The notes below the pieces were generated by a model. It was not told where the DNA came from. It did not search any database and saw only the letters and a program-made list of their open reading frames with translations. The position numbers were made by a program, and so were the translations under genes. Of a stretch of DNA of 40,562 bases, positions 27,542-36,732 are shown in pieces. The stretch's first letter is position 1; every line of letters begins with the position of its first letter. This DNA is from Escherichia phage Zappy: sequence record OQ870568.1, one strand, 5' to 3'.

Positions 27542-27564
27542 ATGTCCTACAGTGATAGTTTAGG
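27542..27564 (-). promoter_or_regulatory. Phage RNAP promoter (phi2.5-like), CCTAAACTATCACTGTAGGACAT (one mismatch at -3)
   Basis: Motif match; overlaps the gp2 stop, upstream of the SSB gene. Confidence 0.6.
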
Positions 27565-27718
27565 TCTCAGGACGAATCCGTCCGACCATAAACCCAGCGT
27601 CCTCATACTCTTGTGACTTCAGGGTAGCCTCTTCAAGAGACTTTGCGTACACCGGAACCTCGAAAGACTGGGTACGTCCCTCAAGTTCCACGATGTATTT
27701 CTTCTCTACGTCAGTCAT
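27560..27718 (-). CDS. 2: Host RNA polymerase inhibitor gp2-like, 52 aa
   Basis: Hand translation [52 protein letters not shown]; SFEVP.YA..L.EA resembles T7 gp2; RBS AAGGAG 8 nt upstream. Below the ORF-track size cut-off. Confidence 0.7.
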
Positions 27719-27796
27719 AGACCACGCTCCTTCCATAAGTTGTAGAGCTGAAGGTAATCGACGTTACCTGTCTCCTCAAATTTACGCTCGCACCAC

Positions 27797-28573: not shown

Positions 28574-28614
28574 CACAAAGCAAAGAAACCCAGCAGTCCT
28601 AAGACCGCTGGGTT
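28574..28614 (-). terminator. Rho-independent terminator, TE-like (early terminator for host RNAP)
   Basis: Minus-strand AACCCAGCGGTCTTAGGACTGCTGGGTT (8-bp GC-rich stem plus inner pairs) followed by TCTTTGCTTTG; directly after the HNH gene that follows ligase. T7 TE lies after gene 1.3. Confidence 0.5.
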
Positions 28615-28618
28615 GACG

Positions 28619-29080
28619 TTATAATAAATCTCTTAAGGCTACTGCCTCGGCTATGGTATCGAACGTACCGTATGACTTACGCTTTATCCGCAGTTGCCAG
28701 CGACCAGTTGATTTCTGGTATTGAACGTATTTCTCTCCAGATTGGCAGTGACTACGGGTTGGAACGTTAGTTAGGTTCACCGCCTGAGTCACACACCTGA
28801 GGTTCTCAATCCTGTTATCCGAAGGGTCCCGGTTGATATGGTCAATCACCATCCCTTCTGGTATAGGACCGTTGGTTAGTTCCCAAACTACTCGGTGGGC
28901 CAACTGCTGGCCCTTTGTCGTACTTAGAATCCAGTACCCATCCTTTCGTCTATAGCCAAGATGTCTACCGTTTAGGTTGGAGACCCCAGAGTGAGCCGCC
29001 CTGTCTGCTTTAAATCTTGACCGTAGGGTCGTCCTCAGTTCCACGCCACTGGTCGAACGAGGGATGCCGTAGTAAGCCAC
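28619..29080 (-). CDS. HNH homing endonuclease (HNH-A), 153 aa, GTG start
   Basis: ORF track; [39 protein letters not shown] is a typical HNH motif; GTG with GGAGGAG 7 nt upstream; paralogous to the ORF at 38505..38945. Confidence 0.8.
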   Translation of the reverse strand: MAYYGIPRSTSGVELRTTLRSRFKADRAAHSGVSNLNGRHLGYRRKDGYWILSTTKGQQLAHRVVWELTNGPIPEGMVIDHINRDPSDNRIENLRCVTQAVNLTNVPTRSHCQSGEKYVQYQKSTGRWQLRIKRKSYGTFDTIAEAVALRDLL

Positions 29081-30900: not shown

Positions 30901-33582
30901 TTAAGCGAATGCAAAGTCTGAAGACAAGATGTCTTCGATATTCAGTTTACCTTTCTTCGGAAGCTCAGGCAACTTATCGCGCTGGCTCTCGTGAAGCTGG
31001 TATTCAAACTGCTCGTAGAAGTCAAGCAGCACATCGTTGTCGCGGTAGGTCTCGACCATCGTCTCACGGACGCCACGGAACAGATACTCAGCGTCAGCCG
31101 GGATGGTCCCGAAGCTATCGTGAATCACTGCGAATGACATCACGCCATACTTGCGGTGCGTGTGGACTACAGTCTTGCGTAGGTGGCTACCATCTTGTGA
31201 GTGGACGAAGTTCGGGCTAATGCCTGACTCCTGCTTGTGCTTGTCCAGCTCTTTCTTAGTACCTTTGTTGACTGTAGGCTGAAGGTTAAATGACCCTAAG
31301 AACATCAGGTTCAAACGTGTGGTATCCTTCTTGCGGTATTCCTGCCAGACCGGGAAACCATCAGGTGTTACCCAGTGTACAGGAAGGCAAGGCTTCAGGA
31401 TTTCACCAGTCTTCTTGTCCTTCACTTCAGCAGCCAGCAACTTGGCAGCGCCTTGAAGCCACTTCATCGCGTCAACCGCAGCAACTACTGTCACACTCAC
31501 AGCTTCCCAAATCATCTTAGCCATGAAGCGAGACGCTTGGCTCGGCTCGGTGAACATAGCGCCAGACCCTGAGTCAATCGCTGGCATCACGATGTCCTCG
31601 TAAACTTGGTCTGCGAAGCCGTACTCTTTCGACCCGTATGCCAGAGTCATGACTGAACGCTTAGTGACCTTGCGTGACATCCCGTAGGTCAGCCACTGAC
31701 GGGCCAGCTCTCGTGTCCCCAGCTTGATACGTTCGGTAATCTCACCAGTTTTCTTGTCCTCGTGAGTGACCATCTCGTTGTCAGTACCGTTAATCAGCAG
31801 GACTTTAAGCTCCTCATCAATGCGGTCAGACACGATGCGGTAGATGTCTTGGACCTTACCGGATGGCGTCAGATTTACTGCATGTCCACCAATGTGGTCA
31901 CGAAGCATCGCGCTGAAGTGCTGAATACCAGAGCAGGACCCATCGAACGCTATCGGCAGTGAGCAGGAGTAAGACAATCCGTGGTGCATTACACCAGCAT
32001 ACTCGAAGCAGAACGCAAGGAAGCAGAACGGAGAGTCTAACTTGCCCCACCACTCAATACTATCCATCGGTGCCTTAGCAGCAGCCATGATGTTTTCGTG
32101 GTTGTCTTCCACCCACTTGATGCGCTCCTCGAAGGTGACTTTATCAACACCCGCGCAGTTTGCACCATGGACCTTCAGCCATTTGAAACCGTCAGCACCA
32201 ATAGGCTTACCGACTGCCAGAGTCAGGAGACCCTTCTGCATGTCGTTACCCTGAGGGTTGAACATCGGCACAGCGTAGACTCGACCGCGCCAGTCCATGT
32301 TGTATGGAAACCAGATGGCCTTGAACTGAGAGAACTTATTCGCTTGGTTGACGATAAAGCTCAGTGATAATCTGCGTGACTGTCGGGCCTTCTCGCGGCG
32401 ATAGATACCAGCAGCAGCCTTCTTCCATGCCTTGAGTTCCTCCTCGGTCTCACCCGCATAGTCCTCAGGCTTCAGTGGTTCCATCTGAGGGATGTCATCG
32501 ATAGGCGTGTTGTTCAACTTCTCGACCATGTTCACCACGTCCAATACCTTCTTGTTTACTTTCCAAGGTGTATTTTGAATGATGTTCACAGCGTCATAGA
32601 CTTCAGGCATGTACACGTCTTCATAACGTGCTACCGCAGACTTAGACCCTAAGCGAATCAATGGTAACGGTCTGCGACCTTTGGCCCAGTACCCACCGCC
32701 TACTACACCAGTCCACGGCTTAGGTGGAACGACGCAAGGCTGGTAGACTGGAGCGATACCCGCAAGGCTGAATCCTCGTTGTGCCATCTTCTTGACCCAG
32801 AAGTCTGACAGGTGGACCATCTCAACGTCAGCCGCCGCATTGCCAGCACCATAACGCTTAAGCTCGACCAGTTGTGTGGACTGGATGACAATCTCTAGCA
32901 TCTTGATGCCAACGTGTACCGCTTCGGTCGGACTCCAAGTACCCCACGCATCTTCCAGTTGACCTTGCTCCAGCATGGAGGTCTCAACTGCTTGCATGTA
33001 GGCTTTCTTGTAGGATGCCCCGGACCGCTTATTCAGGTTATCAGCTATCGCCTTCTTGAAATGCTCTTTCTCCTTGTCACGGATGCGACCGAATCGGATT
33101 TCATCCTCAAGTGTGCGACCTATCGCGGAGGCCATTGGTGTAATCGGTATCCCTTCAGGCTTTACCAGCTTGGAGAGGATGACCTTCAGTATGATAACCG
33201 CAGCAGACTCACAGGAGATGCGCATCGAGCGGTCTTTAACGCCCTTCTCTTCAGTGCTCAACATGGTGAACGCTACGCTAGGACGTGAGGTTGACAGCTT
33301 CCCGTCTTGTCCTTCATGCCACTCCTTGACGGCTTGCGCAATCTTAGGTACCAGAGTCTGCATCAAAGGCTTGGCGACCTGATTGTCTGCCAGTTCCCCG
33401 CGCTCGGTCTGGCGCTCAAGGTTCTTGATGAAACGTCGCTCACCTTCTGTGTATGCCTCATGCTCAAGCTGAAGCTGTTTGACTGCAAGGTCTTGCCCGT
33501 AGTGGTCGGCCAGCAGGTTAAACGGCTCAATGGCGTTCGACACATCAGAGAAGTCGTGTTTGTCAATAGAGATGACGCTCAT
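30901..33582 (-). CDS. 1: Single-subunit DNA-directed RNA polymerase gp1, 893 aa
   Basis: ORF track; long near-identical stretches to T7 RNAP (PFCFLAFCFEYAGV, FDGSCSGIQHFSAMLRD, AIWFPYNMDWRGRVYAV, SFGTIPADA, C-terminal FAFA). Confidence 0.97.
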   Translation of the reverse strand: MSVISIDKHDFSDVSNAIEPFNLLADHYGQDLAVKQLQLEHEAYTEGERRFIKNLERQTERGELADNQVAKPLMQTLVPKIAQAVKEWHEGQDGKLSTSRPSVAFTMLSTEEKGVKDRSMRISCESAAVIILKVILSKLVKPEGIPITPMASAIGRTLEDEIRFGRIRDKEKEHFKKAIADNLNKRSGASYKKAYMQAVETSMLEQGQLEDAWGTWSPTEAVHVGIKMLEIVIQSTQLVELKRYGAGNAAADVEMVHLSDFWVKKMAQRGFSLAGIAPVYQPCVVPPKPWTGVVGGGYWAKGRRPLPLIRLGSKSAVARYEDVYMPEVYDAVNIIQNTPWKVNKKVLDVVNMVEKLNNTPIDDIPQMEPLKPEDYAGETEEELKAWKKAAAGIYRREKARQSRRLSLSFIVNQANKFSQFKAIWFPYNMDWRGRVYAVPMFNPQGNDMQKGLLTLAVGKPIGADGFKWLKVHGANCAGVDKVTFEERIKWVEDNHENIMAAAKAPMDSIEWWGKLDSPFCFLAFCFEYAGVMHHGLSYSCSLPIAFDGSCSGIQHFSAMLRDHIGGHAVNLTPSGKVQDIYRIVSDRIDEELKVLLINGTDNEMVTHEDKKTGEITERIKLGTRELARQWLTYGMSRKVTKRSVMTLAYGSKEYGFADQVYEDIVMPAIDSGSGAMFTEPSQASRFMAKMIWEAVSVTVVAAVDAMKWLQGAAKLLAAEVKDKKTGEILKPCLPVHWVTPDGFPVWQEYRKKDTTRLNLMFLGSFNLQPTVNKGTKKELDKHKQESGISPNFVHSQDGSHLRKTVVHTHRKYGVMSFAVIHDSFGTIPADAEYLFRGVRETMVETYRDNDVLLDFYEQFEYQLHESQRDKLPELPKKGKLNIEDILSSDFAFA

Positions 33583-33602
33583 ACTTAAAGTCCTTGTTAT
33601 TA

Positions 33603-33642
33603 GTCTTTCACTTAGAGTCTCTTTGGTCTTTCACTTGGAGTC
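33603..33642. repeat. 17-bp direct repeat x2 (gtctttcactt[a/g]gagtc) in the RNAP leader
   Basis: Two copies 23 bp apart between the promoter at 33652-33674 and the RNAP start codon. Confidence 0.6.
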
Positions 33643-33651
33643 TTAGACCTT

Positions 33652-33674
33652 GAGTCCTATAGTGATAGTTAAGT
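33652..33674 (-). promoter_or_regulatory. Phage RNAP promoter located 75 bp upstream of the RNAP gene itself, ACTTAACTATCACTATAGGACTC
   Basis: Motif match; lies between the stop of the 86-aa early ORF (33680) and the RNAP ATG (33582). Confidence 0.7.
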
Positions 33675-33679
33675 CATAA

Positions 33680-33940
33680 TTACTTGCATATCAGTGGGTT
33701 AGCGTGAAGATGACTGAAGTCACCGTGAGTCGTGTGCTTGATGGTCGACCGTTGGTCTATCGCCTTCCAGCCTGAGACTAAAAGTTTACCATCGTCAGTG
33801 ATCGGTCGTCCACCAAACGCCAGACTCATCAGTTCGTACTTATTGCCCTCAGCCCTCATGCGGCGATGTAAGAACACGTCACGCTCTATTTGCTCTACAC
33901 GGCTACGGATAGATGGTTTGTTAATGTATACGGTTTTCAT
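33680..33940 (-). CDS. Early hypothetical protein, 86 aa
   Basis: ORF track; start overlaps the upstream stop as TAATG; occupies the T7 0.4-0.7 region. No similarity recognised. Confidence 0.55.
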   Translation of the reverse strand: MKTVYINKPSIRSRVEQIERDVFLHRRMRAEGNKYELMSLAFGGRPITDDGKLLVSGWKAIDQRSTIKHTTHGDFSHLHANPLICK

Positions 33941-34137
33941 TACAGTTTGCTCCCAATAGTTGCTATATCCCAGACGTTCGCTAAGTTGCGCATGAATCGT
34001 CCGTTAGGTTGATGTACAGTCCAGCGGACCATACGTACATAGTTGAATTTATAGACTTTACGCGCTTTGTTGATGTCTCTCATCAGCACGTAGGCGATAA
34101 GTCCATAGCCTATGGCTATCAATAATGAAGATATCAT
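33940..34137 (-). CDS. Early small membrane protein, 65 aa (N-terminal transmembrane segment)
   Basis: ORF track; MISSLLIAIGYGLIAYVLM hydrophobic helix; coupled by ATGA overlap to the upstream 29-aa ORF. Confidence 0.5.
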   Translation of the reverse strand: MISSLLIAIGYGLIAYVLMRDINKARKVYKFNYVRMVRWTVHQPNGRFMRNLANVWDIATIGSKL

Positions 34138-34223
34138 AGTGATTTCCGTTTAATACAATCGTATACCCCATAACCTATCATCAAGATAACTGGCGCTAGA
34201 CATACCCAGTAACCGATGTTCAT
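34134..34223 (-). CDS. Possible early 29-aa membrane peptide (MNIGYWVCLAPVILMIGYGVYDCIKRKSL)
   Basis: ATG with AGGAG 6 nt upstream; stop overlaps the next start as ATGA. Confidence 0.35.
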   Translation of the reverse strand: MNIGYWVCLAPVILMIGYGVYDCIKRKSL

Positions 34224-34437
34224 AATTAACTCCTATCAATTTAAGTGATAATCTTTGAGGCCACCTATCAGTCGTGACCTCTCGTCTATCACTCAGTGTG
34301 TAAGCTGTCGTGCATACGTTTGCGGCGCTTATAGACCACCTTCAGGAGACGCATAGACTCCTCGTGGTTTAATCGCCCGGTCTTGACCATAAGCCGGGCG
34401 GTGGTGACGTGGTACTGGCAGAGACCATAAGTTACCA

Positions 34438-34770
34438 TCACTCGCAGTCCTCTTCAGCCTCGTACCAGACCACCTCAGAGCTATTAGACACATCGTTATA
34501 CAGTGCCTCATAGATGCGAGCTTGTAGTATACGCGTTACGTCCTTGGTCTCAGGCATCAGCCCAGAGTCTTCGAACTCATTGTCAATACCATCAGCAGCC
34601 ATCACCGTGTAAATCTCGTGGTAATAATGCGGAACATTACCGTCTACGACCTCATGCAGCGCATCGCTGTAGTCATCGCCTTCAGCTATTTCGTCGCACT
34701 GAATACGCTCATTGAACAGCTCAACGGTTGCAGCCAGCAGCTCATAGTATGCGTTAGCGTTACGTTCCAT
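34438..34770 (-). CDS. ocr: Ocr (gp0.3) DNA-mimic anti-restriction protein, 110 aa
   Basis: ORF track; VPHYY, EFEDSGLMPETKDVTRILQARIYE and the acidic C-terminus resemble T7 Ocr; first gene after the early promoters. Confidence 0.85.
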   Translation of the reverse strand: MERNANAYYELLAATVELFNERIQCDEIAEGDDYSDALHEVVDGNVPHYYHEIYTVMAADGIDNEFEDSGLMPETKDVTRILQARIYEALYNDVSNSSEVVWYEAEEDCE

Positions 34771-34804
34771 AGTTATATCCTCTCAGTTGTTAGTGACTAT
34801 CAGT

Positions 34805-34836
34805 CAGGGCCTTCAGATGTAGATTCAAAGGCCCTG
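34805..34836 (-). promoter_or_regulatory. Stable hairpin in the ocr leader (R0.3-like RNase III site candidate)
   Basis: Perfect 9-bp inverted repeat CAGGGCCTT...AAGGCCCTG with a 14-nt loop, 35 nt upstream of the ocr ATG. Confidence 0.5.
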
Positions 34837-34876
34837 TAGTTAGTCGCTATCGGCGCACATTAAGAGTTTATCCAGA

Positions 34877-34889
34877 TTGTTAAAGAGCA
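34877..34889 (-). promoter_or_regulatory. boxA-like element TGCTCTTTAACAA in the early leader
   Basis: Exact match to the E. coli rrn boxA core on the transcribed strand, downstream of the early promoter. Confidence 0.5.
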
Positions 34890-34959
34890 TTCCCTTCAGT
34901 CAGAGGACTTCAGGTAGACCATTTCAGTGTTGGTCATCACCGTTGTTTCGATGTGGTAC

Positions 34960-34989
34960 ATCTTACATCTTATCGTTACATCTTGTCAA
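34960..34989 (-). promoter_or_regulatory. Host sigma70 early promoter (T7 A2/A3-like): TTGACA - 18 bp - TAAGAT
   Basis: Minus-strand GTTGACAAGATGTAACGATAAGATGTAAGATGTACCACAT; -35 perfect, -10 TAAGAT as in T7 A2; downstream GTACCACAT as in T7 A3. Confidence 0.65.
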
Positions 34990-35101
34990 CTACTTTCTGT
35001 CATCTGCCTGTTGTTCGTATGACTGATCAGGCTGTCTACTTAACCGGGATGGTCCGGCGTCTTCACTATCCGGTTGTTGCCGTGTCGTGTTGACGGAAGC
35101 T

Positions 35102-35130
35102 ATTAGGCCATATCCTTGACCTATAGTCAA
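35102..35130 (-). promoter_or_regulatory. Possible second sigma70 early promoter (A1-like): TTGACT - 17 bp - CCTAAT, with AT-rich upstream tract
   Basis: Good -35 and UP-like AT-rich region, but poor -10. Confidence 0.3.
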
Positions 35131-35280
35131 TAGGTAATTTGAAATAATATTGATTAAGTTATCGTCGGCCCCATGGTGTAAGAGGATATAGTCTTTGACT
35201 AACATGTCTTTGACCTTAAGTCTATAGCTCTGTGTCTAGTAACTGTAGGTCTCTGACTGTAGGCGTTGGTGTCTTATGGT

Positions 35281-35373
35281 TGAGACTGTAGGTTAGTGAG
35301 ACTGTAGGTTAGTGAGACTGTAGGTTAGTGAGACTGTAGGTTAGTGAGACTGTAGGTTAGTGAGACTGTAGGT
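35281..35373. repeat. Tandem array of a 16-bp unit (tgagactgtaggttag), 5 perfect copies plus a partial one
   Basis: Read directly; the core CTGTAGG also recurs at 35243, 35256, 35651 and 35668. Confidence 0.9.
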
Positions 35374-35848
35374 GTAGGACGTAATGTTATACTATAACAC
35401 TATACAGATAGAGACTCAAAGAAGACCTATAGCCCCTACCTATCGTCCTTCCCTAAGCCATAGCCTAGACCTATCGTTGACCTGAAGTCTTTACCATCGG
35501 TCCAACCTTATGATAGACTGGCTGTGACTGCAAGGAGCAGTAACGGGTAGGGCCTTTGGTCTGGACTTAAAGAGGGCCTATGGGGAGACTTGAGGTTCTT
35601 GAACTGTGAGATGTGGTCTCAAACTTTTGGTCCAAAACTCATCGTCACTACTGTAGGCCACAGCCACTGTAGGCCAAGGACCGTAGGTCAGGCGACACTA
35701 GGATAGACCAATAAGTAGGATGACCCTAAGTGAGCTTCTCTTAAGGTGTTACCTAAAGTCCTTGACTGCAGTAGCTAAGGTCAGTAGAGTAGCGTCAGCT
35801 ATGAACTGACCTTAGGTCTTCCGCTCATGAATCGTTACCATGATTGCG

Positions 35849-36007
35849 TTAATTACACTGAGAGACCAGAGAGCATACGAGAGTCTCGACCCACCCGACC
35901 CACTGACTTCCAGCAGTAACGCCAGCAGCAAGTAGAACAGCAGCAAGAAACCTGTATGTAGCTCGATTGGTCGCCAGAGCTTTAAGTACAGCTTTGGTCT
36001 TTGCCAT
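35849..36007 (-). CDS. Possible small membrane protein, 52 aa, at the gene 19.5 position
   Basis: Hand translation MAKTKAVLKALATNRATYRFLAAVLLAAGVTAGSQWVGWVETLVCSLVSQCN; AGGAGG 8 nt upstream of the ATG. Confidence 0.4.
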   Translation of the reverse strand: MAKTKAVLKALATNRATYRFLAAVLLAAGVTAGSQWVGWVETLVCSLVSQCN

Positions 36008-36153
36008 ATGCTACATACCTCCTGTATCTATGGTCGGTGACTATCTGTATTTGAGGGATTATGATTAATATCACCCTCCTCTATAGGGAGACTTAGAGTC
36101 TTATCTATATGCTAACTTTTAGTCGGCATACTATAAGGTCCCCCTAGGTCCCC

Positions 36154-36176
36154 CATCCCTATAGTGATAGTTAAGT
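36154..36176 (-). promoter_or_regulatory. Phage RNAP promoter (phiOR-like), ACTTAACTATCACTATAGGGATG
   Basis: Motif match; last promoter before the probable right genome end. Confidence 0.7.
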
Positions 36177-36189
36177 TAACCTATTGAAT

Positions 36190-36732
36190 TTACTTGTGGT
36201 TTCTCTTGGCCCTATCACGCTTAGGGGACCGTAGGGAAACAGCGTACTCCTTGTGCTTCTCTTCACGTAGTGCTGTCAGCCATGCTTCAAGTTCTATCAC
36301 AGAGTCGGAAGTCTTTGTGTAGCACTTACCCTTAAGTCGCAACTGAGCGCGATACTTTCCGGTAGGCTTGAAGAAGCTGATACCCTTAGGGAGACCATTA
36401 GTCTCGCCACCTCCTGAGTTCCATCTGTTCTCCAATGCTGTTACTAACCTGTAGTTATCCGGCCTGTCATCAAGCCTATCACCATTGATATGGTCAACCA
36501 TCATGCCAGAAGGTATTCGACCAACGGCTAGGCTGTAGATGATTCTGGCACGTCTATAGCGACTACCAAGGACCTTCACGATTGCGTACCCAGACGGATG
36601 GACTGAATGTCCCATGACCTCGCCTGGCTTCTTGTTAGAGCCTTTATAGGACTTCTTGCACACCAACTCACCATCTACATAAGCATAGTGATTAAAGAGG
36701 GCCACCCTGTCGATGGCCTTCTGTTTACTCAT
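36190..36732 (-). CDS. HNH homing endonuclease (HNH-B), 180 aa, immediately downstream of the large terminase gene
   Basis: ORF track; GRIPSGMMVDHINGDRLDDRPDNYRLVT HNH motif; RBS AGGAGG. Confidence 0.8.
   Translation of the reverse strand: MSKQKAIDRVALFNHYAYVDGELVCKKSYKGSNKKPGEVMGHSVHPSGYAIVKVLGSRYRRARIIYSLAVGRIPSGMMVDHINGDRLDDRPDNYRLVTALENRWNSGGGETNGLPKGISFFKPTGKYRAQLRLKGKCYTKTSDSVIELEAWLTALREEKHKEYAVSLRSPKRDRAKRNHK

What the first reader, a model, noticed from the sequence alone, without database searches (positions are those of the whole stretch)
34877..34889. Exact rrn-type boxA sequence in the early leader upstream of ocr
TGCTCTTTAACAA on the transcribed strand matches the E. coli boxA core exactly. 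It sits between the strong sigma70 promoter at 34960-34989 and the ocr leader hairpin, where a host-type antitermination or processive-elongation signal for early transcription would be placed. I recall a near-identical element in the T7 early leader, which argues it is conserved and functional.
Basis: partly seen in the sequence, partly recalled or inferred. Interest (0 to 1): 0.5.

Follow-up and report, generated by a model that had tools for sequence, protein, structure and literature searches.

The report
Host-type boxA in phage early leader
This K1F/T7-like phage carries, just after its early host-type promoter, the same short RNA signal (boxA) that E. coli uses on its ribosomal RNA operons to make RNA polymerase resist termination; the equivalent T7 element is already known and genetically shown to work, so this is a correct but ordinary finding.

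Summary
TGCTCTTTAACAA lies at 34889..34877 on the minus strand, which is the transcribed strand. It is the only match in the window, and it equals the MG1655 rrnH/B/D boxA over 14 nt.

It sits at about +64 from a TTGACA-18-TAAGAT promoter (34989-34960). It is 39 nt before an R0.3-type hairpin (34849-34791) and 107 nt before the ocr start codon.

T7 has CGCTCTTTAACAATCTGG at +63 from A3. The 12-mer core is also exact in T3, K1F, KP32, gh-1, SP6 and K1E.

Among 69 loci picked only by RNA polymerase homology, 59 have the exact core upstream on the sense strand. There are no exact hits in 1.37 Mb of other sequence.

Published T7 genetics (Savalia 2010, cited in PMC3709561 and PMC3778932) shows that boxA mutations make Gp2 dispensable, which implies antiterminated host RNA polymerase.

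Verdict: this is a real, functional element that is already known.

Two further results came from related sequences:
- An upstream hairpin with an invariant ACACUGAAA loop is supported by covariation.
- In SP6/K1E-like relatives, repeated boxA copies each sit next to the 5' arm of a long-range helix that brackets early genes, as in rrn operons.

The parts
34960..34989 (-). Sigma-70 early promoter (A2/A3-type), TTGACA-18-TAAGAT. The transcription start is inferred at 34952 by alignment with the T7 A3 start at 750.
   Evidence: 10 of 12 matches. (GTACCACAT shared with T7 A3). (16-mer GTAAGATGTACCACAT shared with T3 595-610, which covers the annotated T3 A2 -10).
34913..34941 (-). Conserved RNA hairpin upstream of boxA (GUGA, then stem GACCA/UGGUC, with the invariant loop ACACUGAAA). 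It is boxB-like in position; its function is unknown.
   Evidence: fold. (25 distinct leaders: GTGA and ACACTGAAA invariant or nearly so; 4 core pairs carry 6-10 compensatory changes each; 84.7% of cells paired against 19-34% when the partner is slid; 0 of 500 shuffles reach the observed value).
34877..34889 (-). boxA (UGCUCUUUAACAA), at +64 to +76 of the early transcript. This is the element in the finding.
   Evidence: unique exact match. (identical to rrn boxA). (conserved in relatives, sense strand only).
34871..34876 (-). Conserved 3' extension of boxA (UCUGGA; family pattern U-N-U-G-G-W). It differs from rrn (UUUAUC) and its role is unknown.
   Evidence: the extension 6-mers are TATGGA 33, TCTGGA 16, TCTGGT 5, TTTGGA 2, TTTGGT 2, TACGGA 1.
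34791..34849 (-). R0.3-type stem-loop (a probable RNase III processing site) in the ocr leader.
   Evidence: -24.7 kcal/mol; whole-leader z-score -4.56. T3 annotates 'RNase III recognition site R0.3' 41 nt after its boxA start, the same spacing as here (39 nt).
34438..34770 (-). ocr (gene 0.3) anti-restriction DNA mimic, the first early gene.
   Evidence: PF08684, E = 3.9e-31..
30901..33582 (-). Phage single-subunit RNA polymerase (gene 1), the main product of the boxA-modified early transcription unit.
   Evidence: 893 aa; up to 99% identical to IMG/VR relatives.
28587..28614 (-). Terminator-like hairpin with a T run (12 bp stem). It is the candidate early terminator (TE equivalent) after the ligase and HNH genes.
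   Evidence: The ligase homolog is at 30056-29013 (50% identity to T7 gp1.3, E = 2e-105).
27560..27736 (-). Gp2 homolog (58 aa). Gp2 is the host-RNA-polymerase inhibitor whose essentiality in T7 depends on boxA.
   Evidence: 42% identity over 52 aa to T7 Gp2, E = 1e-5. (the ORF).

Best explanation
The 13-mer is a functional boxA RNA element and the ortholog of the T7 early-leader boxA.

Proposed mechanism. Host RNA polymerase starts at the early promoter(s) and transcribes boxA at about +64. The nascent single-stranded boxA is bound by host NusB-NusE(S10). Together with NusA, NusG and SuhB this assembles an rrn-type, host-factor-only antitermination complex on the elongating polymerase. The modified polymerase resists Rho and is more processive. 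It therefore crosses the untranslated leader and the roughly 6.3 kb early operon (ocr, small early genes, phage RNA polymerase, ligase), and part of it reads past the early terminator. That read-through is why the phage also needs Gp2 to shut host polymerase off later.

What is shown here: the sequence, its strand, its position, and its conservation.

What is shown in the literature, for T7 only: boxA mutations make Gp2 dispensable, and the host polymerase is described as antiterminated.

What is inferred: Nus factor binding, Rho resistance, and transfer of the T7 result to this phage.
For: - Sequence: unique exact match, 14 of 14 identical to the MG1655 rrnH/B/D boxA.
- Position: on the transcribed strand, +64 from a 10-of-12 sigma-70 promoter. 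T7 has the same element at +63 from A3.
- Conservation, unbiased sample: of 69 loci chosen only by RNA polymerase homology (58-99% identity) that have at least 2400 nt upstream, 59 have the exact 12-mer on the sense strand upstream, 5 have one mismatch, and 5 have none. There are 0 exact hits in 1.37 Mb of antisense plus downstream sequence.
- Conservation, ocr-selected sample: 33 of 40 loci have it exactly, upstream of ocr.
- Named phages: T3 781, K1F 669, KP32 659, gh-1 728, SP6 656/926, K1E 894/1663/1975.
- Island of conservation: it is among the longest exact words the window's pre-polymerase region shares with T7, T3, SP6, K1E and KP32, while the flanks diverge.
- Accessibility: boxA is predicted to be less paired than its surroundings in 82% of 95 distinct leader contexts.
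- rrn precedent: boxA alone is necessary and sufficient for rrnTAC formation (PMC10250234).
- System context in the window: a Gp2 homolog and a TE-like terminator are present.
Against: - There is no experiment on this phage. Savalia 2010 itself could not be read, so its content is known only through papers that cite it.
- rrn boxC is absent: the best match has 4 of 10 mismatches.
- An RNase III-type hairpin starts only 39 nt after the start of boxA. Cleavage there would cut boxA off the growing transcript, and how the modification would then persist is unexplained (inference).
- 5 of 69 relatives lack boxA, and some carry a degenerate copy (GTTCATTAACAA). T7 boxA mutants are viable. The element is therefore not essential.
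- In the window's minimum-energy fold, 7 nt of boxA pair with the upstream UGAAGGG. This pairing is specific to this lineage.
Confidence: 0.85

Rival explanations
1. RNA-processing chaperone. In this reading boxA mainly tethers the 5' leader to the polymerase through NusB-NusE, so that the nearby RNase III helices fold and are cut correctly. This is the model proposed for the rrn leader-trailer helix. Termination resistance would be secondary. This reading can coexist with the best explanation.
For: In every lineage boxA is followed closely by an RNase III-type helix: T3 R0.3 (annotated), gh-1 R1, and the window at 34849-34791.

In SP6/K1E-like phages and in cassette-bearing relatives, the 40 nt right after one boxA form the best duplex in the whole locus with the 50 nt right before the next boxA. 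This holds in 22 of 26 intervals, at -26 to -53 kcal/mol against a background of about -16. That is the rrn arrangement of boxA followed by the leader strand (PMC10250234).
Against: In the window and in T7 the helix is a local hairpin, which needs no tether. The window's post-boxA segment has no strong long-range partner. The T7 phenotype reported for boxA concerns read-through and Gp2 dependence, not processing.
Confidence: 0.15
2. suhB-type repression. In this reading the Nus complex bound at boxA blocks translation initiation of the downstream gene and so promotes Rho termination, down-regulating ocr and the early genes.
For: A boxA in an mRNA 5' UTR acts this way at E. coli and Salmonella suhB (PMC5725501). 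In SP6/K1E the boxA copies lie only about 55-100 nt before start codons.
Against: Here boxA is 107 nt from the ocr start codon, with a probable RNase III site in between. The T7 genetics points to more read-through with boxA, not less.
Confidence: 0.04
3. DNA-level role. In this reading the conserved word serves mainly as a short homology 'linker' for recombinational exchange of early-gene cassettes, or as a protein-binding DNA site, and not as an RNA signal.
For: Gene cassettes sit between two boxA copies. L006, a K1F-like phage with a polymerase 98% identical to the window's, has a 52-aa gene between copies at 1105 and 1360. The same cassette start (ATGACTAACGCACAACGTAAACGCTATGA) appears in K1E and in a KP32-like contig.
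Against: The orientation is strictly on the sense strand. The sequence is identical to the host NusB-NusE ligand. T7 genetics is available. A 12-17 nt word is short for homologous exchange. At best this is a by-product of the repeats.
Confidence: 0.03
4. A chance match with no function.
For: In a single genome the degenerate consensus occurs at least once in 12 of 100 shuffles.
Against: About 0.0012 exact 13-mers are expected. 59 of 69 independent relatives keep the core in the same place and on the same strand, with none elsewhere in 1.37 Mb.
Confidence: 0.01

Closest known systems
Phage T7 early-leader boxA (T7 nt 812-824; Savalia et al. 2010, J Mol Biol 402:118, as cited in PMC3709561 and PMC3778932)
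   Same: The core GCTCTTTAACAA plus TCTGG is the same. So is the distance from the last early promoter start (+63 against +64), the upstream GUGA-stem-ACACUGAAA hairpin, the downstream R0.3-type hairpin followed by gene 0.3/ocr, and the presence of Gp2 in the genome.
   Different: The first base is T here and C in T7. This phage has one clear A2/A3-type promoter plus a doubtful A1-like one, where T7 has three. It has no gene 0.7 kinase. There are no experimental data for this phage.
E. coli rrn operon leader boxB-boxA-boxC and the rrnTAC complex (NusA, NusB, NusE, NusG, SuhB, S4)
   Same: The boxA is identical over 14 nt. The order hairpin, then boxA, then RNase III helix is the same. The element lies just after a strong promoter. 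No phage-encoded factor is needed (inference). boxA alone suffices for complex formation in rrn (PMC10250234).
   Different: There is no boxC. The helix is a local hairpin, not a leader-trailer helix. The operon codes for proteins. The 3' extension is UCUGGA, not UUUAUC. The upstream hairpin resembles the rrnD/H boxB only in T7 (CGACAGTGAG...CTGAAAG, p about 0.003-0.007), and not significantly in this window.
Lambda nutL/nutR (boxA followed by a boxB that binds N)
   Same: It is an RNA signal in an early leader that uses the host Nus factors, with the boxA core GCUCUU.
   Different: Lambda boxA is the weaker CGCUCUUA (from general knowledge). In lambda the order is boxA then boxB, and the phage N protein is required. 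Here the hairpin comes before boxA, and no N-like gene is evident among the early ORFs (not searched exhaustively).
suhB 5'-UTR boxA (Baniulyte et al. 2017, PMC5725501)
   Same: It is a boxA that matches GYTCTTTAANA in an mRNA leader outside the rrn operons.
   Different: At suhB the element represses the downstream gene through a translation block and Rho. Here, as in T7, the reported effect is antitermination, and the element is separated from the start codon by a processing hairpin.

Membership tests
rrn-type boxA (NusB-NusE binding RNA element) | The sequence matches the boxA consensus (GYTCTTTAANA; E. coli rrn TGCTCTTTAACAA). | tested here: met
   (unique exact match). (14 of 14 identical to rrnH/B/D). 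The consensus comes from PMC5725501.
rrn-type boxA (NusB-NusE binding RNA element) | It lies on the transcribed strand, downstream of a host-polymerase promoter, so that it is present in the nascent RNA. | tested here: met
   It is at +64 from the inferred start, and the strand is that of ocr and the RNA polymerase gene.
rrn-type boxA (NusB-NusE binding RNA element) | It is conserved at the same place in relatives, beyond the conservation of its flanks. | tested here: met
   (59 of 69 exact, sense strand only). (T7, T3, K1F, KP32, gh-1, SP6, K1E). (flanks diverge).
rrn-type boxA (NusB-NusE binding RNA element) | It binds the NusB-NusE heterodimer. | not testable with these tools
   This needs EMSA, ITC or ChIP. 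The sequence identity to the rrn ligand makes binding very likely, but that is inference.
rrn-type boxA (NusB-NusE binding RNA element) | It confers resistance to termination or Rho on downstream transcription. | not testable with these tools
   The only evidence is by homology: T7 boxA mutations make Gp2 dispensable, and the host polymerase is described as antiterminated (PMC3709561; PMC3778932).
Complete rrn nut-like leader (boxB-boxA-boxC) | A stem-loop lies upstream of boxA (the boxB position). | tested here: inconclusive
   A hairpin supported by covariation is present. Homology to rrn boxB is only suggestive, and only for T7 (p 0.003-0.007 for T7, 0.3 for the window). KP32-type leaders lack the hairpin.
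Complete rrn nut-like leader (boxB-boxA-boxC) | boxC (UCUGUGUGGG) lies 18-19 nt after boxA, within the 5' strand of a leader-trailer helix. | tested here: not met
   the best match within 70 nt has 4 mismatches, while the rrnH control has 0; there is no long-range partner in the window.
Lambda-type nut site | boxA is followed by a boxB hairpin that is bound by a phage N-type protein. | tested here: not met
   The conserved hairpin precedes boxA. The downstream hairpin is R0.3-type. The early ORFs have no Pfam match other than ocr. An N-like protein was not searched for exhaustively.

The most novel reading that the evidence does not exclude
The early leaders of T7-group and SP6-group phages are full functional mimics of the host rrn leader, and may be captured copies of it: a boxB-like hairpin, then boxA, then an RNase III helix. 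In this reading boxA works there as a co-transcriptional RNA tether as much as an antiterminator.

In SP6/K1E-like phages every early gene block is a 'mini-16S', with the order boxA, 5' arm, gene(s), 3' arm, next boxA. The Nus complex would be reloaded after each processing helix. The same boxA-flanked modules would also be the units in which early genes are swapped between phages.

The window's single boxA plus local R0.3 hairpin would be the reduced form of this design. The invariant ACACUGAAA hairpin loop would be a binding site for a factor that has not been identified.
Probability: 0.2. Interest if true: 0.6.

Novelty: already known. Interest (0 to 1): 0.28.

Why it matters
For this window it matters little. 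It confirms that a K1F-like phage keeps the known T7 boxA, so its early transcription by host polymerase is probably Nus-modified, and that explains why the phage also keeps Gp2.

The comparative by-products could matter more.
- boxA is close to universal and strictly placed in the early leaders of Studiervirinae and Molineuxvirinae that infect enterobacteria, and in Pseudomonas putida phage gh-1.
- It has a conserved extension that is not found in rrn.
- It has a covarying upstream hairpin with an invariant loop.
- In SP6-like phages it is repeated next to helices that bracket genes, just as in rrn operons.

Together these make T7-like phages a compact, genetically tractable system for separating the antitermination role of the Nus complex from its RNA-tethering role. 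They are also relevant to engineering phage early regions.

Tried and rejected
- Rfam scan of 33000-36500 at E up to 10: only a chance snoRNA hit, so no family covers the leader.
- boxC search: not present.
- Long-range partner for the post-boxA segment in the window: none comparable to the SP6-type helices (the inverted-repeat scan found only a 12-nt chance-level pair).
- Homology of the upstream hairpin to the rrnD/H boxB: significant only for T7, not for the window, so it is not claimed for the window.
- Occlusion of boxA by the upstream UGAAGGG in the minimum-energy fold: specific to this lineage and not conserved, so it is rejected as a regulatory feature.
- Reading Savalia 2010 directly: not held under its PMC id or its DOI.
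- Literature searches for boxA in T7-like, SP6 or Autographiviridae genome papers found nothing beyond PMC3709561.
- phiKMV and Vibrio phage VP4 as further carriers: no boxA in their early regions.
- The pattern scan of IMG/VR was too unspecific to measure the distribution among T7-like phages, because many hits are other kinds of phage.

Full report
**Observation.** Read on the minus strand, the region runs in this order:
- a promoter, TTGACA-18-TAAGAT, at 34989-34960;
- GTACCACAT, which contains the inferred transcription start;
- about 60 nt of leader;
- TGCTCTTTAACAA at 34889-34877;
- TCTGGATAAACTC and onward;
- a long hairpin;
- a Shine-Dalgarno sequence and the start codon at 34770.

The 13-mer is the only exact copy in the window. 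It is also the only match to the published boxA consensus GYTCTTTAANA (the consensus is from PMC5725501). The promoter scores 10 of 12. The downstream gene is ocr (PF08684, E = 3.9e-31). The MG1655 rrnH, rrnB and rrnD leaders all read TGCTCTTTAACAAT, so the identity with the host rrn boxA is 14 of 14.

**What the window is.** The leader is 96.9% identical to Escherichia phage phiYIO1-1, and 583 phage records match some part of it. The K1F leader around boxA is identical over the stretch compared. The window is therefore a K1F-like (Kayfunavirus) T7-group genome in reverse orientation.

The early unit on the minus strand is laid out as follows:
- promoter at 34989;
- ocr at 34770-34438;
- three small ORFs;
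- phage RNA polymerase at 33582-30901;
- ligase at 30056-29013;
- an HNH endonuclease ORF at 29080-28619;
- a terminator-like hairpin at 28614-28587;
- further on, a Gp2 homolog at 27736-27560.

**Comparison with T7.** T7 reads CGCTCTTTAACAATCTGG at 812-829. This lies between the annotated A3 start (750) and gene 0.3 (925). Aligning GTACCACAT puts the window's start at 34952, so boxA begins at +64 here and at +63 in T7.

**Conservation.** Two samples were drawn without reference to boxA.
- Forty IMG/VR loci were chosen by ocr homology. Thirty-three have the exact 12-mer GCTCTTTAACAA upstream of ocr.
- Seventy-nine loci were chosen by homology to the window's RNA polymerase (58-99% identity). 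Of the 69 with at least 2400 nt of upstream sequence, 59 have the exact 12-mer upstream on the sense strand, 5 have one mismatch and 5 have none. There is no exact hit in the remaining 1.37 Mb, which is all antisense sequence plus the sense strand downstream.

Named phages agree. The core is at T3 781, which is 41 nt before T3's annotated 'RNase III recognition site R0.3'. It is at K1F 669, KP32 659 and gh-1 728, the last lying between the annotated A3 promoter and the R1 RNase III site. SP6 has exact copies at 656 and 926 and a one-mismatch copy at 1536. K1E has copies at 894, 1663 and 1975. phiKMV and Vibrio phage VP4 have none.

The flanks differ completely between lineages. boxA is among the longest exact words that the window's pre-polymerase region shares with T7, T3, SP6, K1E and KP32.

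The base before the G varies (C in 36 loci, T in 20, A in 3), so the 13th matching base is not a conserved feature. The six bases after the core are conserved as U-N-U-G-G-W, which is not the rrn continuation.

For T7 the element is already in the literature as functional:
[quoted passage not shown] The primary paper could not be read.

The best explanation for the window is therefore an orthologous boxA that uses host factors only. It would load NusB-NusE and the other Nus factors onto host polymerase early in the leader. The early transcription unit would become resistant to Rho and more processive, with leak-through at the early terminator that Gp2 later has to stop. The window contains the matching context, a TE-like hairpin and a Gp2 homolog.

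Nus binding and Rho resistance are inferred, not shown. There are four caveats:
- boxC is absent;
- the R0.3-type site lies directly downstream and would sever the tether;
- some relatives lack boxA;
- T7 boxA mutants are viable, so the element is not essential.

**The surrounding RNA.** Upstream of boxA, 25 distinct T7-, T3- and K1F-type leaders share an invariant GUGA, a 5-6 bp stem and an invariant loop ACACUGAAA. The four core pairs carry 6-10 double (compensatory) changes each. Overall 84.7% of cells are paired, against 19-34% when the partner is slid by 1-3 columns, and no shuffle out of 500 reaches the observed covariation. In the window the hairpin is at 34941-34913. It occupies the boxB position of an rrn leader.

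T7, but not the window, shows a suggestive similarity to the rrnD/H boxB region: CGACAGTGAG, an 8-nt gap, then CTGAAAG, with p about 0.003-0.007. KP32-type leaders lack the hairpin, so it cannot be required for boxA function.

Downstream, the 34849-34791 hairpin (-24.7 kcal/mol) corresponds in position to the annotated R0.3 of T3.

boxA itself tends to be unpaired. Its mean pair probability is 0.42 against 0.55 for the surrounding leader, and it is lower than the leader average in 82% of 95 contexts.

**A pattern in relatives that bears on mechanism.** Where a phage has several boxA copies, the sequence right after one copy is complementary to the sequence right before the next.
- SP6: 940-969 pairs with 1491-1520 (30 nt, 97%), bracketing gp2-gp4. 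660-689 pairs with 905-934, bracketing gp1.
- K1E: 1678-1702 pairs with 1948-1972, and 1990-2014 pairs with 2211-2235.

Over 26 distinct intervals in the fetched loci, this pairing is the best duplex in the entire locus in 22 cases, at -26 to -53 kcal/mol against a background near -16.

A K1F-like relative, L006, has a polymerase 98% identical to the window's. It carries a 52-aa gene inserted between two boxA copies, with a 35-nt bracket helix.

This is the rrn design, in which boxA is followed by the leader strand of an RNase III helix that closes around the product (PMC10250234). It motivates the rival and novel reading that the Nus complex also acts as an RNA tether for processing in these phages. 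The window has only the local hairpin and no long-range partner, so this reading is weak for the window itself.

**Novelty and score.** The element is real, conserved and almost certainly functional. But its T7 ortholog is a described and genetically tested boxA, and the window's leader is the same as that of the sequenced phage K1F. I rate the finding 'already known', with interest 0.28. That score is slightly above routine only because of two comparative results I could not find described in the searchable literature: the covarying hairpin with an invariant loop, and the repeated units of boxA plus bracket helix.

Noticed in passing
window 34913-34941 (- strand); T7 (L001) about 760-785: There is a conserved hairpin upstream of boxA, with an invariant GUGA 5' flank, an invariant ACACUGAAA loop, and stems that change by compensatory substitutions across T7-, T3- and K1F-type leaders. 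It has no Rfam family. It is absent from KP32-type leaders. T7's version resembles the rrnD/H boxB region.
   Followed up: partly
L245 (SP6) 656-1536; L246 (K1E) 894-2236; L016, L018, L019, L032, L033, L125, L126, L191, L202, L232: SP6/K1E-like phages carry 3 or more boxA copies in the early region. The 40 nt after each copy pair with the 50 nt before the next copy. This is the best duplex in the locus in 22 of 26 intervals, so early genes are bracketed by long-range helices in an rrn-like way.
   Followed up: yes
L006 1105-1371 (a K1F-like IMG/VR contig whose RNA polymerase is 98% identical to the window's): A 52-aa gene cassette is inserted at the boxA site. It is flanked by two boxA copies and a 35-nt bracket helix. 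A similar cassette start occurs in K1E and in a KP32-like contig (L034). This suggests that boxA-flanked modules move between phages.
   Followed up: partly
L127, L131, L148, L163, L164, L166, L170, L172, L184, L188, L192 (IMG/VR, mostly derived from bacterial genomes): Contigs that do not look T7-like share AAAAAAGCGCCCTACAGGACGCTT (a hairpin) immediately followed by GCTCTTTAACAATCTGG. This looks like an rrn-type boxA, with the same extension, used by another and probably temperate group of phages.
   Followed up: no
window 35026-35042 (- strand): The 17-mer TAAGTAGACAGCCTGAT is shared exactly with T7 (551) and T3 (534). In those phages it lies between the A1 and A2 promoters. It is a conserved non-coding word of unknown role.
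   Followed up: no
window 35102-35130 (- strand): An A1-like promoter keeps the -35 TTGACT, but its -10 is a poor CCTAAT (17-nt spacer). The consensus scan did not call it. The window seems to have one strong A2/A3-type promoter where T7 has three.
   Followed up: no
window 28619-29080 (- strand): An HNH endonuclease ORF (PF13392, E = 1.2e-22) lies between the ligase gene and the terminator-like hairpin. It is probably a homing-endonuclease insertion at the end of the early region.
   Followed up: no
window about 35280-35370 (- strand): There is a tandem array of the 16-nt unit CCTACAGTCTCACTAA near the left end of the genome, upstream of the early promoters.
   Followed up: no
window 33656-33671 (- strand): TAACTATCACTATAGG, a T7-type phage-polymerase promoter core, lies just upstream of the RNA polymerase gene and is shared exactly with KP32 (position 377).
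   Followed up: no
window 34990-35205 (- strand): A 71-aa ORF spans the region between the A1-like promoter and the strong promoter. It is annotated as a hypothetical protein in phiYIO1-1 and is also open in L006. Whether it is a real gene or an artefact of conserved promoter sequence is unclear.
   Followed up: no
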